From Enterobacteria phage JenP1: a stretch of DNA of 60,754 nt. Numbering within the stretch: the first letter of the stretch is position 1; each line of letters begins with the position of its first letter. The position numbers and the translations under genes were made by a program. Location of the stretch: sequence record NC_029028.1. One strand, given 5' to 3'. Under the pieces are notes generated by a model. The model ran no database searches. It had not been told where the DNA came from and saw only the letters and a list, made by a program, of their open reading frames with translations. Below, piece after piece: positions 23,296-24,152 of the stretch.

Positions 23296-23329
23296 AAAAG
23301 CGCCTCTAGTATGGCGCTTTTATTTTTTA
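23296..23329 (+). terminator. intrinsic terminator after fiber genes
   Basis: stem AAAAGCGCC / GGCGCTTTT with 8-nt loop followed by T-run. Confidence 0.65.
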
Positions 23330-23444
23330 TAATCAATATTTACAAAACAATTTACGCTTTACCTTGCGATTCCCCACTTTTGCTATATGCTTGCTCTGTA
23401 ACGTAAGAGTTACATTAATTTAACAATCTAAATGGGGAATCCAT

Positions 23445-24152
23445 ATGTCTGACATGACTCTTATTCCGAGCGGTTTAGGTGGCGGTTTCGGTGGTGAAGC
23501 TGGTGCAGCGGCCGTTGGCGGTGGTATCGGTGGCTTAATCGGTTCGTGGATCGGAAATGGTTGGGGTGGCGGTGGTGGTTGGGGCGGTTGGGGTGGTCGT
23601 GCTGGTCCTGTAGAAGTTCAAGCATCAGTTGACACCAATGCTATTCTGCAAGCTATCAACAACGGCACTCTGCAGACTATCCAGGGCCAGAACGGTACTA
23701 ACCTGACTGTAGAGCGTTCTGCCTCTTCCACCTTTAACGGTATCACTCAGCAGAACACTCAAAACCTGCTGGCATCCGTGCAAGGCTTCGCTGGTCTGAA
23801 TAATCAGGTTCAGCAGGGCACTAACCAGATCGCCAACGCTATCTGCGCTCAATCATATGAACAACAGCGTATTGCTTATGAAGCTCAATTACGAGCTCAA
23901 GAGTGCTGCTGTGAAACCAACCTCAACATCGAACGTCAGGGTAACGAAACCCGCGCTCTGCTGTTGAAACAAGAAGCTGATCGTCAAGCAATCCTGATTT
24001 GTGATCTGAAGTCCCAGATCCAGTCACGCGATTTCCTGATCTCTCAGCAAGCTCAGACCGCGAAACTGAAGTGTCAAATCGATCAGGTTGAACAGCTCGT
24101 TAACTTCAAGCTGCCAACTCCGCCGACTCCTCCAACTGGTTGCTGTGGTTGA
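23445..24152 (+). CDS. glycine/tryptophan-rich, Gln/Asn-rich, Cys-containing protein of unknown function
   Basis: 235 aa; N-terminal GGGFGG...GNGWGGGGGWGGWGG, central Q/N-rich region, CCC and C-terminal PTPPTPPTGCCG. Confidence 0.5.
   Translation: MSDMTLIPSGLGGGFGGEAGAAAVGGGIGGLIGSWIGNGWGGGGGWGGWGGRAGPVEVQASVDTNAILQAINNGTLQTIQGQNGTNLTVERSASSTFNGITQQNTQNLLASVQGFAGLNNQVQQGTNQIANAICAQSYEQQRIAYEAQLRAQECCCETNLNIERQGNETRALLLKQEADRQAILICDLKSQIQSRDFLISQQAQTAKLKCQIDQVEQLVNFKLPTPPTPPTGCCG

What the first reader, a model, noticed from the sequence alone, without database searches (positions are those of the whole stretch)
23296..24152. Gly/Trp-rich, Gln/Asn-rich, Cys-containing protein starting an accessory operon
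The gene follows a strong terminator after the tail fibers. It encodes GGGFGG...GNGWGGGGGWGGWGG, then a Q/N-rich region, a CCC triplet and a C-terminal PTPPTPPTGCCG. The composition recalls Gly-rich membrane-active peptides (colicin translocation domains, class II microcins) or a structural fibre, but I cannot assign a family. It begins a four-gene plus-strand unit (23445-25414) that ends at a bidirectional terminator.
Basis: seen in the sequence. Interest (0 to 1): 0.5.

Follow-up and report, generated by a model that had tools for sequence, protein, structure and literature searches.

The report
Abundant Gly-rich coiled-coil phage accessory protein
This is a real and apparently very highly expressed phage gene for a rod-shaped protein with a glycine/tryptophan-rich tip and an almost invariant triple cysteine; it belongs to a widespread phage-only family that nobody has characterised, it is dispensable in the laboratory, and its function remains unknown.

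Summary
The window is Enterobacteria phage JenP1. The finding is gp26, the CDS at 23445..24152 (235 aa). AlphaFold gives a disordered Gly/Trp-rich N-terminus (residues 1-63), one continuous helix (64-222) and a Pro/Thr tail ending in GCCG.

The gene sits between two terminator hairpins. It has its own promoter-like element and a conserved 5' hairpin. Its codon adaptation ranks second of 57 genes, above the major capsid protein.

The family (PHROG 9288/16490, both "unknown") is almost entirely phage-borne. It keeps CCC in 162 of 166 full-length members. Distant members, from Bacilli/Clostridia MAG contigs and unassigned viral contigs, carry a clearly hydrophobic segment where JenP1 has the Gly-rich stretch.

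In enterobacterial phages the gene travels with three downstream genes as a mobile cassette that occupies different genome positions. Natural deletions and gene decay show the cassette is dispensable.

Tests for colicin, microcin, spanin, tape-measure mimicry and fibre-chaperone readings all failed. A profile search of the PDB hits only influenza HA2, weakly (E about 5e-4), which I treat as analogy rather than homology.

My best guess, at low confidence, is an abundant coiled-coil rod anchored in a membrane by its N-terminus that acts at the cell envelope. A virion or extracellular fibre remains a live rival.

The parts
23291..23326 (+). Intrinsic-terminator-like hairpin plus T-run that closes the lateral tail fibre genes
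   Evidence: RNA fold gives -19.1 kcal/mol, z = -6.1, with 0 of 200 shuffles folding as well. HdK1 carries an annotated terminator at the equivalent place.
23364..23391 (+). Sigma-70-like promoter candidate: TTGCGA, 16-nt spacer, TATGCT
   Evidence: Read from the sequence. A -10-like hexamer (TATGCT, TATTCT, CATACT, TATACT, TAGATT or GATACT) stands at the same distance from the 5' hairpin in 8 lineages. It matches only 8 of 12 consensus positions, so the consensus scan did not report it. The motif is unique in the window. This is inference, not a mapped promoter.
23397..23414 (+). Conserved hairpin TGTAAC-GTAAGA-GTTACA, 5 nt after the -10-like hexamer; probably the 5' end of the mRNA, or possibly an operator palindrome
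   Evidence: A hairpin occupies the same position with different stem sequences in other lineages: GTAACC/GGTTAC, GTAGCC/GGTTAC, GTGGC/GCCAC, GTAGTC/GACTAC. RNAalifold finds 5 pairs, 2 of them with changes on both sides. There is only one exact copy in the window.
23434..23438 (+). Shine-Dalgarno-like GGGGA, 6 nt before the ATG
   Evidence: Sequence.
23445..24152 (+). Gene 1 (JenP1 gp26, AVU34_gp26), 235 aa: the Gly/Trp-rich, Q/N-rich, Cys-containing protein
   Evidence: ORF; PHROG 9288 full length, E = 5e-129; exact match to JenP1 gp26; Fop 0.747, rank 2 of 57 genes, z about 2.8.
23445..23474 (+). Conserved N-terminal motif MSDMTLIPSG (family consensus M-S/T-D-M-T-L-[LVI]-P-T-G)
   Evidence: Column counts in 132 members: D3 in 118, M4 in 128, L6 in 132, P8 in 117. 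It is absent from the Firmicutes-type homologues.
23469..23609 (+). Gly/Trp-rich segment (residues 9-55), with small residues at period 4 (A21, G25, G29, G33, G37, G41, G45) and Trp at 35, 40, 46, 49
   Evidence: pLDDT below 50. G29 and G33 are nearly invariant. Insertion energy of the best 19-mer, on the Hessa scale as I recalled it: +4.8 kcal/mol here, -1.1 to +2.8 in distant homologues, +0.9 for Pf3 coat. The period-4 pattern is only weakly non-random: p = 0.14 for G alone, 0.03 for G/A/S.
23634..24110 (+). Single continuous alpha-helix, residues 64-222 (rod or coiled-coil former), containing QGFAGLN (113-119) and LICD (184-187)
   Evidence: AlphaFold2 with a 33-sequence alignment: helix 64-222, with 10-residue block means of pLDDT 78-96 over residues 131-220. 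Relatives carry 22-residue QGF(A/S)GLNT repeats in variable number.
23904..23912 (+). CCC triplet (Cys154-156), the most conserved feature of the family
   Evidence: At least 90% conserved in the 33-sequence distant alignment. Present in 162 of 166 full-length members. Duplicated in Firmicutes-type members.
24111..24149 (+). Pro/Thr-rich tail LPTPPTPPTGCCG
   Evidence: Non-helical in the model. A CC pair within the last 8 residues occurs in 91 of 162 members; the others end in ATPPVA or similar.
24177..24200 (+). Terminator or attenuator hairpin directly after gene 1
   Evidence: 9-bp stem plus UUUUU. Equivalent hairpins occur after gene 1 in HdK1, vojen, Sasha (annotated as a terminator), P-K7R, KurtStettler, the eiAU-like phage, L008, L010, L011 and L012, but not in PY100.
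24218..24583 (+). Gene 2 (gp27), 121 aa, with a His/Glu-rich N-terminal half; an optional member of the cassette
   Evidence: PHROG 9157, unknown. BASEL labels the homologue 'putative pyrophosphatase', which nothing here confirmed. The gene is absent from L010, L011 and L014.
24600..25148 (+). Gene 3 (gp28), 182 aa: a beta-rich domain followed by a Pro/Gln/Glu-rich tail
25145..25414 (+). Gene 4 (gp29), 89 aa
   Evidence: PHROG 7239, unknown. Syntenic with genes 1 and 3 in all enterobacterial lineages examined.
25450..25479 (.). Hairpin between the cassette and the convergent DNA polymerase gene (bidirectional terminator)
   Evidence: 13-bp stem found by the scan. It folds on both strands: -28.8 and -20.1 kcal/mol for the 86-nt stretches.
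23928..23937 (+). 10-nt direct repeat ATCGAACGTC, copy 1 (in gene 1); copy 2 lies at 24831-24840 in gene 3
   Evidence: Three copies in the window against 0.11 expected. The two cassette copies are 903 bp apart, which is in frame, and the junction matches the natural fusion protein P0120.

Best explanation
Shown here. gp26 is made from its own small transcription unit, bracketed by terminator hairpins, and judging by codon adaptation it is one of the most abundant proteins of the phage. It has a flexible Gly/Trp-rich N-terminus behind a conserved acidic MSDMTL(L)P start, a roughly 160-residue helix carrying an almost invariant Cys-Cys-Cys, and a Pro/Thr tail that usually ends in Cys-Cys. It belongs to a horizontally mobile cassette that is non-essential in the laboratory.

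Inferred. The helix pairs with itself into a parallel oligomeric rod about 24 nm long, stapled through the Cys cluster by disulfides or a bound metal. The Gly/Trp-rich N-terminus inserts into or lies on a lipid membrane, most likely the host cytoplasmic membrane. The charge bias favours a topology with the N-terminus outside and the rod in the cytoplasm. The protein acts stoichiometrically rather than as an enzyme, coating or modifying the envelope of the infected cell. Plausible roles are exclusion of superinfecting phages or protection and timing of the envelope before lysis. On this reading it is not a part of the virion.

The architecture and the cassette biology are well supported. The membrane location is moderately supported. 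The biological role is a guess.
For: Expression and transcription unit:
- Fop 0.747, rank 2 of 57 genes, against 0.714 for the major capsid protein and 0.41-0.47 for the adjacent fibre genes. The value stays at 0.73 when the Gly-rich codons are left out.
- Gene 1 exceeds genes 2-4 in 8 of 8 lineages.
- Hairpins lie before and after the gene. The -10-like hexamer and 5' hairpin keep the same layout across lineages.

Architecture:
- AlphaFold gives residues 1-63 disordered, one helix 64-222 and a non-helical tail.

Membrane association:
- At the position of the Gly-rich stretch, distant homologues carry hydrophobic segments such as WFWIIILAFLF, GLLLFFLLF, WFFVFFLFFLLAW and WWIVILFLFCF. Their predicted insertion energies are comparable to Pf3 coat.
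- The N-tail has a net charge of -1 or -2 in 140 of 145 members. The 20 residues after the segment are +1 or 0 in 139 of 145.
- The only PDB sequences the family profile finds are HA2 chains, aligned colinearly from the fusion peptide into the long helix.

Not a core virion part:
- The cassette is mobile. It sits after the lateral tail fibre genes in Queuovirinae and T1-like phages, after TerL in Sashavirus, and beside dam/ssb in PY100.
- The N-terminal motif stays nearly identical across phages with unrelated virion proteins.
- The cassette is absent from the related phage swan01.
- It is deleted or fused in BASEL phages Bas22 and Bas23 and in the variant P0120, and decayed in T5-like phages.

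Not the lysis machinery:
- The window has its own holin, endolysin and Rz-like spanin.
Against: - The Gly-rich segment of this particular protein is not hydrophobic enough for a standard transmembrane helix (+4.8 kcal/mol).
- The glycine-zipper periodicity is barely above chance.
- There is no signal peptide, and no membrane-protein family matches.
- Eight cysteines, a Pro/Thr hinge and a terminal CC look more like an extracellular, disulfide-linked protein than a cytoplasmic rod.
- The gene usually lies at the end of tail modules or inside head modules. In Firmicutes-type phages it sits next to a BclA_C-like protein, a knob-like domain, at E = 3.8e-6, which is below Pfam's cut-off. That would suit a fibre.
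- High abundance also fits a capsid decoration protein.
- No experiment of any kind exists for this family. The one relevant virion proteome, for PY100, could not be read.
- The promoter is only 8 of 12 consensus positions and was missed by the scan.
Confidence: 0.33

Rival explanations
1. Virion-associated or lysis-released extracellular fibre or decoration. Trimeric coiled-coil stalks made in the cytoplasm attach through one end to the capsid, the tail or a partner such as gene 3 (or the BclA_C-like protein in Firmicutes phages). After lysis they are locked by interchain disulfides at CCC and at the terminal CC. They would help adhesion or particle stability and be dispensable in the laboratory, like phi29 head fibres or T4 Hoc, Soc and fibritin.
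For: - Codon adaptation equals that of the capsid protein.
- The gene lies at the end of tail-fibre modules, or between the minor capsid protein and the scaffold.
- It has a long single helix.
- The Pro/Thr hinge plus CC and the conserved CCC resemble interchain disulfide knots. This rests on my own knowledge of the collagen III GPCCG knot and the IgA1 hinge.
- It is dispensable.
- A BclA_C-like neighbour is present.
Against: - The cassette moves between phages with unrelated capsid and tail proteins while its N-terminal motif stays nearly invariant.
- It has its own promoter-like element and is insulated by terminators from the late operon.
- In PY100 and Sashavirus it is not next to fibre genes.
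- Distant homologues carry strongly hydrophobic segments that would be odd in a soluble virion protein.
- The terminal CC is absent from 44% of members.
Confidence: 0.22
2. Intracellular self-assembling polymer or condensate scaffold, comparable to an intermediate filament or keratin. Low-complexity Gly/aromatic head and tail regions flank a coiled-coil rod, and cysteines cross-link the network. It would form an abundant matrix in the infected cell.
For: - The protein has a head-rod-tail layout.
- The GGGFGG and GWGG head, and the Gly/Phe/Tyr/Cys-rich tails of P0153, P0169, P0171 and the Firmicutes-type members, fit this layout.
- Expression is very high, and an attenuator followed by low-level accessory genes is the design seen in operons with a major subunit plus helper genes.
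- Neighbouring genes in Firmicutes phages also encode Q/M/G/P-rich low-complexity proteins.
Against: - The case rests purely on architecture and composition. No homology to any cytoskeletal family was found.
- Hydrophobic cores of 11-13 residues in distant members point to lipid rather than protein-protein contacts.
- No such structure has been reported in small siphophages (my own knowledge).
Confidence: 0.13
3. Membrane-fusion or membrane-disrupting accessory that works like a class I viral fusion subunit or a spanin. The N-terminal peptide inserts into a target membrane and the coiled coil transmits force, assisting envelope disruption at lysis or entry.
For: - All of the best 60 PDB profile hits are influenza HA2 (E = 5e-4 to 5e-3), aligned from the fusion peptide into the long helix.
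- The real HA2 score of 22.6 bits exceeds all 500 global and all 500 segment shuffles.
- The rod length of about 24 nm is similar to the width of the periplasm (inference).
Against: - The score comes from the helix region, not from the order of fusion-peptide residues. With the peptide shuffled the median is still 20.1 bits.
- There is no second membrane anchor and no predicted helical hairpin.
- HIV gp41 scores -2.2 bits.
- The phage has its own Rz-like spanin in a separate lysis cassette.
- Homologues occur in Firmicutes phages, which have no outer membrane to fuse.
Confidence: 0.1
4. Lateral tail fibre chaperone or sugar-binding fibre accessory, as some BASEL records annotate it.
For: - The gene lies directly after the lateral tail fibre genes in Queuovirinae, T1-like and eiAU-like phages, and as a decayed remnant in T5-like phages.
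- Bas22 annotates it 'putative lateral tail fiber chaperone', and four T1-like BASEL phages annotate it 'putative sugar-binding protein'.
Against: - The Bas22 label applies to a deletion-generated fusion with the S74-domain fibre gene.
- Bas23 keeps an intact 1132-aa fibre but has lost genes 1-3.
- The cassette stays the same while the fibre type changes: S74 type here, Caudo_TAP type in HdK1.
- In PY100 and Sashavirus it is away from fibre genes.
- No carbohydrate-binding domain was found, and the BASEL paper gives no supporting text.
Confidence: 0.07
5. Colicin- or microcin-like exported toxin, with a Gly-rich translocation domain, a coiled-coil receptor domain, and genes 3 and 4 serving as toxin and immunity.
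For:
- Expression is high and a terminator follows the first gene.
- Gene 4 has the size of a colicin immunity protein.
Against: - The PROSITE TonB-box core matches 0 of 166 members, and the window protein fails even relaxed patterns.
- There is no cytotoxic domain, since only 13 residues follow the helix.
- At 235 aa it is far above the size of microcins.
- Homologues occur in phages of Gram-positive bacteria.
- No hit to any toxin or immunity family.
Confidence: 0.03

Closest known systems
Influenza haemagglutinin HA2 (class I viral fusion subunit)
   Same: Both have an N-terminal Gly-rich, Trp-containing hydrophobic peptide followed by a long helix that forms a coiled coil. HA2 is the only PDB family found by the profile, and the alignment is colinear. 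The score exceeds composition-preserving shuffles.
   Different: The match is only about 20-23 bits and is driven by the helix rather than the peptide. gp26 has no C-terminal transmembrane anchor, no hairpin-forming second helix and no receptor-binding partner. I treat the likeness as analogy, not homology.
Phage i-spanin Rz
   Same: Both have an N-terminal anchor, a coiled-coil rod, functionally important cysteines and Pro-rich partners or tails. The Rz features are from my own knowledge.
   Different: JenP1 has its own Rz-like spanin in the lysis cassette. No o-spanin partner ORF lies nearby. gp26 is longer, has an acidic rather than basic N-tail, and has homologues in Gram-positive phages.
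Membrane-anchored superinfection-exclusion proteins (T4 Imm, lactococcal Sie2009, HK97 gp15)
   Same: These are accessory, dispensable, membrane-associated proteins encoded at module boundaries or as morons (my own knowledge). The cassette here behaves like a moron.
   Different: There is no sequence similarity. gp26 is much more highly expressed and carries a 160-residue rod with a Cys cluster. No exclusion phenotype has been tested.
phi29 p16.7 and p1 (membrane-associated coiled-coil organisers of replication)
   Same: These are abundant, non-essential, membrane-tethered proteins that multimerise through coiled coils (my own knowledge). The cassette often abuts replication genes.
   Different: No DNA-binding domain is evident, there is no sequence similarity, and gp26 has a Cys cluster and a Pro/Thr tail.
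Intermediate-filament proteins and keratins
   Same: Both have Gly/aromatic low-complexity head (and, in some family members, tail) regions, a central rod, cysteines suited to cross-linking, and high abundance.
   Different: No homology was found. The rod is half the length, and filament formation is untested.
Colicin translocation plus receptor-binding domains
   Same: Both have a disordered Gly/Trp-rich N-terminus followed by a long helical region (the colicin features are from my own knowledge).
   Different: There is no TonB box and no toxin domain, and the family extends to phages of Gram-positive bacteria.

Membership tests
Colicin / TonB-dependent bacteriocin | TonB box (PROSITE PS00430 core [DENF]-[ST]-[LIVMF]-[LIVSTEQ]-V-x-[AGP]-[STANEQPK]) in the N-terminal region | tested here: not met
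   0 of 166 family members match. The window protein also fails two relaxed versions of the pattern. The pattern was recalled from memory.
Colicin / TonB-dependent bacteriocin | C-terminal cytotoxic domain with a cognate immunity protein | tested here: not met
   Only 13 residues follow the helix. No toxin or immunity family hit for genes 1-4.
Class II microcin | Small peptide (under about 10 kDa) with a double-glycine leader and a dedicated ABC exporter | tested here: not met
   The protein is 235 aa with a 160-residue helix. The leader consensus and the exporter were not searched for formally.
Class I viral fusion protein (HA2-like) | N-terminal fusion peptide followed by a heptad-repeat coiled coil | tested here: inconclusive
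   Weak colinear profile hits to HA2 only (E = 5e-4). They exceed shuffles but do not depend on the order of peptide residues.
Class I viral fusion protein (HA2-like) | C-terminal transmembrane anchor and a second helix that packs back to form a trimer of hairpins | tested here: not met
   The model shows a single uninterrupted helix 64-222 followed by a 13-residue Pro/Thr tail, with no C-terminal hydrophobic segment.
Two-component spanin (Rz/Rz1) | Located in the lysis cassette with an embedded or adjacent o-spanin lipoprotein gene | tested here: not met
   The Rz-like spanin, endolysin and holin lie at 59010-60386. The ORFs overlapping gp26 lack a lipobox (read by eye).
Bitopic membrane protein / glycine-zipper helix | Hydrophobic segment able to span the bilayer | tested here: inconclusive
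   Best 19-mer is +4.8 kcal/mol in the window protein and -1.1 to +2.8 in distant homologues, against +0.9 for Pf3 coat. The Hessa scale values were recalled from memory.
Bitopic membrane protein / glycine-zipper helix | GxxxG repeats beyond what the composition alone would give | tested here: inconclusive
   A run of 6 Gly at period 4 gives p = 0.14; a run of 10 G/A/S gives p = 0.03 in 5000 shuffles. G29 and G33 are nearly invariant.
Tape-measure protein (mimic of its membrane-insertion region) | Similarity to the phage's own tape-measure protein | tested here: not met
   hhalign probability 0.4% against the 1086-aa tape-measure protein of the window. The only other link is a marginal PHROG 794 hit, E = 0.0075.
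Tail fibre / S74 intramolecular chaperone | Peptidase_S74 or fibre-repeat domains | tested here: not met
   The S74 domain is in the upstream gene 22237..23292 (E = 1.4e-12), not in gp26. The Bas22 'chaperone' label is explained by a deletion fusion.
Intermediate-filament-like protein | Tripartite layout of head, coiled-coil rod and tail | tested here: met
   Residues 1-63 disordered, helix 64-222, tail 223-235. This is a layout only, not homology.
Intermediate-filament-like protein | Self-assembly into filaments | not testable with these tools
   This needs purified protein and electron microscopy.
Moron-like autonomous accessory unit | Own promoter and terminator, variable genome position, dispensability | tested here: met
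   Terminators lie on both sides. The promoter-like element and 5' hairpin are conserved. The cassette occupies three different genome positions. Natural deletions exist. Promoter activity itself is untested.

The most novel reading that the evidence does not exclude
gp26 would found a new class of phage proteins: Cys-stapled coiled-coil rods with low-complexity Gly/aromatic ends. After massive synthesis they would self-assemble into a cross-linked layer or matrix, keratin-like or fusion-protein-like, on a membrane of the infected cell. No such structure has been described for small tailed phages. The family is shared by phages of enterobacteria and by phage-like contigs attributed to Firmicutes.
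Probability: 0.15. Interest if true: 0.8.

Novelty: new variant of a known kind. Interest (0 to 1): 0.52.

Why it matters
By codon adaptation this is one of the most strongly expressed genes of a well-sampled group of coliphages: Nonagvirus, Seuratvirus, Hanrivervirus, Tlsvirus and Sashavirus, including members of the BASEL collection. Yet it is annotated 'hypothetical' everywhere, or mislabelled as a fibre chaperone or sugar-binding protein.

A dispensable, horizontally mobile protein that a phage nevertheless makes in capsid-like amounts is likely to act in a phage-host or phage-phage interaction that laboratory K-12 infections do not reveal.

The natural deletion variants Bas22 and Bas23, alongside intact relatives, make the question directly testable. 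The invariant CCC and the conserved N-terminal motif are obvious targets for mutagenesis.

Correcting the database labels is useful in its own right.

Tried and rejected
- Family libraries. Pfam, NCBIfam and PADLOC gave no significant hit for any of the four proteins. The PHROG hits are all labelled 'unknown'.
- Colicin TonB box. I recalled a likeness between MSDMTLIPS and DTMVVWPS. The PROSITE core pattern matches 0 of 166 members, so I rejected it.
- Mimicry of the tape-measure protein. hhalign probability against the window's own tape-measure protein is 0.4%. Rejected.
- Spanin. The window has a separate Rz-like spanin, and homologues occur in Firmicutes phages. Rejected as membership.
- Homology to HA2. 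The hits are weak and do not depend on the order of fusion-peptide residues. Kept only as an analogy.
- Glycine zipper. The period-4 pattern is barely above chance for this composition. Kept only as compatible.
- Rfam on the regulatory regions. Nothing below E = 0.09.
- Virion proteomes. The 9g paper has none. The proteome of swan01 is irrelevant because that phage lacks the cassette. The PY100 proteome paper is not held in the library. Other literature searches found nothing on this family.
- Profile search of the word-indexed database. It returned no new distant identifiers in the 120 hits listed.
- The afdb50 library was not available.
- Fold search with the gp26 model was not run, because a single long helix would match anything.
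Full report
**Identity and observation.**
The window is the complete genome of Enterobacteria phage JenP1 (Nonagvirus, Queuovirinae). The four proteins at 23445-25414 are exact matches to JenP1 gp26-gp29, on a 60,754-bp contig. The region is 90-96% identical at the DNA level to JenP2, JenK1, HdK1 and Salmonella phage SE1.

The finding corresponds to the CDS 23445..24152 (+), 235 aa.
- 35 Gly, of which 25 fall in residues 1-55.
- Four Trp, at 35, 40, 46 and 49.
- A Q/N/T/S-rich stretch.
- CCC at residues 154-156.
- The ending LPTPPTPPTGCCG.
- Eight Cys in all.

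The finding's start coordinate, 23296, lies inside the terminator of the upstream fibre genes rather than in the gene.

**Transcription-unit anatomy.**
The lateral tail fibre genes end at 23292 and are followed by a strong hairpin with a T-run at 23291-23326 (-19.1 kcal/mol, z = -6.1).

Downstream lie three elements in order:
- TTGCGA, a 16-nt spacer and TATGCT (23364-23391).
- Five nucleotides later, a hairpin TGTAAC-GTAAGA-GTTACA (23397-23414).
- A GGGGA ribosome-binding site six nucleotides before the ATG.

The promoter candidate matches only 8 of 12 consensus positions, so the simple scan did not report it. However, the same layout recurs upstream of the homologous gene in vojen, PY100, an eiAU-like phage, WildeMaa, Sasha, Solent and P-K7R. 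In each, a -10-like hexamer is followed within 5-8 nt by a 5-8-bp hairpin, with different stem sequences: GTAACC/GGTTAC, GTAGCC/GGTTAC, GTGGC/GCCAC and GTAGTC/GACTAC. RNAalifold recovers five pairs, two of them with compensatory changes. The motif occurs only once in the window.

From established knowledge, a stem-loop at the 5' end stabilises E. coli mRNAs (Emory, Bouvet and Belasco 1992; my own knowledge). That would fit a highly expressed gene. An operator palindrome is the alternative reading.

Directly after the stop codon there is a second terminator-like hairpin (24177-24200). An equivalent hairpin follows gene 1 in nearly every lineage examined and is annotated as a terminator in Sasha.

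The block ends at the hairpin at 25450-25479, which faces the convergent DNA polymerase gene.

**Expression level.**
I scored each gene by its fraction of E. coli optimal codons, using a codon list recalled from Ikemura and Sharp. Gene 1 scores 0.747. That is rank 2 of 57 genes, with a window mean of 0.52 and sd of 0.08, so z is about 2.8.

For comparison, the major capsid protein scores 0.714, the tail tube protein 0.616, and the neighbouring fibre genes 0.41-0.47. The value is 0.73 when the Gly-rich first 55 codons are excluded.

In all eight lineages tested, gene 1 is far more adapted than genes 2-4: 0.55-0.78 against 0.34-0.58. Together with the intervening hairpin, this is the design of one abundant product followed by low-level accessory genes.

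**Family and conserved features.**
The protein matches PHROG 9288 (unknown function) end to end, and PHROG 16490 (also unknown) more weakly. Pfam, NCBIfam and PADLOC give nothing.

Homologues number 158 clusters at 90% identity in the word-indexed search. In the exhaustive search they amount to 65 representatives of 50%-identity clusters. All named ones are 'hypothetical'.

In annotated phage records the gene occurs in these groups:
- Nonagvirus and Seuratvirus.
- Sashavirus.
- T1-like Hanrivervirus and Tlsvirus.
- Yersinia phages PY100 and P400.
- Edwardsiella eiAU phages.
- T5-like Epseptimavirus, where it survives only as fragments.

A narrow-pattern scan of one genome per bacterial species found only three loci. 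All were MAG contigs, attributed to Bacilli, a Clostridia genus and Chthoniobacter. The family therefore looks essentially phage-borne.

Across a 33-sequence alignment with 24-59% identity to the query, the near-invariant positions are M1, G29, G33 and C154-C156. CCC is present in 162 of 166 full-length members. The N-terminal motif M-S/T-D-M-T-L-[LVI]-P-T-G is present in 132. A CC pair in the last eight residues is present in 91 of 162.

Relatives carry one to three 22-residue QGF(A/S)GLNT repeats, and a second conserved block xCCCxTxxxIxxEGxATRxLI...LCDAKAKI.

**Structure.**
AlphaFold2 with that alignment predicts residues 1-63 as disordered and one uninterrupted helix from 64 to 222. The 10-residue block means of pLDDT are 78-96 over residues 131-220, and the tail is non-helical.

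A monomeric 160-residue helix cannot be stable alone. I therefore infer a homo-oligomeric coiled-coil rod about 24 nm long. The oligomeric state is unknown.

**The N-terminus.**
Several distant homologues carry a clearly hydrophobic core at the same place, flanked by Gly and Trp:
- The roughly 45-kb viral contigs L020-L087, whose host is not assigned.
- The Bacilli MAG contig L090.
- P0153, P0169 and P0171.

The cores include WFWIIILAFLF, GLLLFFLLF, WFFVFFLFFLLAW and WWIVILFLFCF.

On the Hessa scale, recalled from memory, these segments score -1.1 to +2.8 kcal/mol, close to the known transmembrane helix of Pf3 coat (+0.9). The JenP1 segment scores +4.8, and the HA2 fusion peptide +12.

Small residues recur at period 4 in JenP1 (A21, G25, G29, G33, G37, G41, G45). 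For so Gly-rich a stretch this is barely above chance: p = 0.14 for Gly alone and 0.03 for G/A/S.

The N-tail has a net charge of -1 or -2 in 140 of 145 members. The 20 residues after the segment are +1 or 0 in 139 of 145. By the positive-inside rule (established knowledge) this favours a topology with the N-terminus outside and the C-terminus inside, if the segment inserts at all.

Membrane association is therefore a reasonable inference for the family, but it is not shown for JenP1 gp26.

**Resemblance to haemagglutinin.**
A profile of the family searched against all PDB sequences returns influenza HA2 chains as every one of the best 60 hits, at E = 5e-4 to 5e-3 and 20-23 bits. The profile's Gly-rich region aligns to the fusion peptide, and the following helix aligns to the HA2 long helix.

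In my own control, the real HA2 score of 22.6 bits exceeded all 500 global shuffles (maximum 7.5) and all 500 segment-wise shuffles (maximum 17.5). Shuffling only the fusion peptide left the score almost intact (median 20.1). Shuffling everything else destroyed it (median 2.9). HIV gp41 and tropomyosin do not score.

The positional signal therefore lies in the first part of the helix, and the Gly-rich match is compositional. I regard this as an architectural analogy. gp26 lacks the second anchor and the hairpin that define class I fusion proteins.

The BASEL label 'putative sugar-binding protein' on four T1-like homologues has no support in the paper's text. It may stem from similar haemagglutinin hits, but that is speculation.

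**The cassette and its mobility.**
Genes 2-4 (121, 182 and 89 aa) follow gene 1 in Queuovirinae, vojen, P-K7R, Sasha, Solent, PY100 (ORF29-32) and an eiAU-like contig. More distant proteobacterial phage contigs keep genes 1, 3 and 4 and may lack gene 2.

The position of the cassette varies:
- After the lateral tail fibre genes in Queuovirinae, T1-like and eiAU-like phages.
- After TerL in Sashavirus.
- Beside dam and ssb in PY100.

The fibre type upstream also varies. It is the S74 type in the window and the Caudo_TAP type in HdK1.

Gene 1 also occurs without genes 3 and 4 (L005, L006 and the Firmicutes-type contigs). Gene 3 occurs without gene 1 in phage 9NA. So the four-gene unit is a syntenic module rather than an obligate complex.

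In the hydrophobic-core homologues, both the viral contigs and the Bacilli contig, gene 1 belongs to a different conserved cluster. That cluster includes a BclA_C-like protein (E = 3.8e-6, below the Pfam cut-off) and Q/M/G/P-rich small proteins. It lies either between the minor capsid protein and the scaffold or after the tail genes.

**Dispensability.**
Five independent observations show that the cassette is not needed for plaque formation:
- In KurtStettler (Bas22), an in-frame deletion joins the S74 fibre gene to codon ~19 of gene 1. It removes the terminator, the promoter region and the conserved N-terminal motif. This fusion is what carries the 'fibre chaperone' label.
- In WildeMaa (Bas23), gene 1 is cut after about 90 residues and joined out of frame to the middle of gene 3.
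- P0120, seen on 11 contigs of up to 61.5 kb, is an in-frame fusion of gene 1 to gene 3. It is explained by the 10-nt direct repeat ATCGAACGTC at 23928 and 24831, of which 0.11 copies are expected in the window.
- T5-like phages carry only split remnants directly after their fibre gene.
- The T1-like phage swan01 lacks the cassette at the same locus.

**What it most likely is.**
The firm conclusions are as follows. gp26 is an autonomous, moron-like, horizontally mobile and dispensable gene. It encodes one of the phage's most abundant proteins. That protein is a Cys-bearing rod with a Gly/Trp-rich end that may interact with a membrane.

My preferred mechanistic reading, at about one chance in three, is this. 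The rods are tethered by their N-termini to the host cytoplasmic membrane and act stoichiometrically on the envelope of the infected cell, for example in superinfection exclusion or envelope protection. On this reading they are not part of the virion. The arguments are the hydrophobic segments in distant homologues, the charge asymmetry, the strict conservation of the N-terminal motif across phages with unrelated virions, the transcriptional insulation, and the variable genome position.

The main rival, at about one in five, is a disulfide-locked extracellular or virion fibre. It is favoured by the Cys and Pro/Thr chemistry, the late-module neighbourhoods, the BclA_C-like neighbour and the capsid-like expression level.

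A keratin-like intracellular polymer, a fusion- or spanin-like role and a fibre chaperone are less likely. A colicin- or microcin-type toxin is effectively excluded.

**Novelty and score.**
The ORF itself is already in GenBank as 'hypothetical'. What is new here:
- The definition of the family's architecture and invariant features.
- Its expression design.
- Its mobility and dispensability.
- The correction of two misleading database labels.

No characterised relative exists. I file it as a new variant of a known kind, a phage accessory or moron protein, probably membrane-associated. There is a modest chance that it represents something categorically new. Interest is moderate, because this is a conspicuous, testable unknown in model coliphages but no function has been demonstrated.

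Noticed in passing
window 34228-35052 (-) and 54221-54715 (-): The most codon-adapted gene of the genome (Fop 0.80) encodes a 274-aa protein of unknown function with a K/E/A-rich helical N-terminal part (PHROG 11298). It shares weaker PHROG hits (21588, 18634) with another well-adapted unknown gene, Fop 0.64.
   Followed up: partly
window 23928-23937 and 24831-24840: A 10-nt direct repeat ATCGAACGTC, 903 bp apart and in frame, links gene 1 and gene 3. It matches the junction of a natural in-frame fusion protein (P0120) found on 11 contigs. A third copy lies at 59208-59217.
   Followed up: yes
L002 4011-5543 (Escherichia phage KurtStettler, Bas22): The CDS annotated 'putative lateral tail fiber chaperone' is a deletion-generated in-frame fusion. 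It joins the S74-domain fibre gene (...GLLVQVCRE) to gene 1 from residue ~19 (AGAAGIGG...).
   Followed up: yes
L089 3707-4344 (Escherichia phage WildeMaa, Bas23): A deletion removes the distal two-thirds of gene 1, all of gene 2 and the first third of gene 3. The 1132-aa lateral tail fibre upstream is intact.
   Followed up: yes
L002 6812-7015 and L089 4723-4926: Seuratvirus phages carry an extra 67-aa ORF after gene 4, rich in Cys, Pro and aromatic residues (MCGNTNRCCLGSP...FGVYPYGAFFRIF). Its composition resembles the C-terminal tails of distant gene-1 homologues. The ORF is absent from the window.
   Followed up: no
L003 5752-6342 (Salmonella phage vaffelhjerte, T5-like): Gene 1 survives only as two broken ORFs (123 and 67 aa) immediately after the S74-type L-shaped fibre gene. 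This suggests it was co-transferred with the 3' end of fibre genes and then decayed.
   Followed up: partly
L094 about 2800-3520 (Salmonella phage 36): Gene 1 is frameshifted inside the Gly-codon tract, and many 'tail fiber' fragments are annotated nearby. The cause may be sequencing error in a low-quality record or genuine slippage in the GGT/GGC repeats.
   Followed up: no
Phage records KarlJaspers, JakobBernoulli, DanielBernoulli, PaulSarasin (hits H95, H111, H122, H129): The homologues are annotated 'putative sugar-binding protein'. No carbohydrate-binding domain was found here, and the BASEL paper gives no supporting text.
   Followed up: partly
window 22237-23292 (+): The gene just upstream is a 351-aa lateral tail fibre protein with a C-terminal Peptidase_S74 intramolecular chaperone domain (E = 1.4e-12). 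It has one of the lowest codon-adaptation values in the genome (0.415), consistent with recent exchange.
   Followed up: partly
L020 6877-7305, L090 6698-7135: In the gene-1 homologues with a hydrophobic N-terminal core, the gene is followed by a roughly 145-aa protein with a BclA_C-like (TNF/C1q-like) domain, below the Pfam cut-off (E = 3.8e-6). It is preceded by Q/M/G/P-rich low-complexity proteins. This forms a second conserved cassette of unknown function.
   Followed up: partly
Literature: PMC4276943 (phage 9g): [quoted passage not shown] Any link to this abundant Gly/Cys-rich protein is speculative.
   Followed up: no
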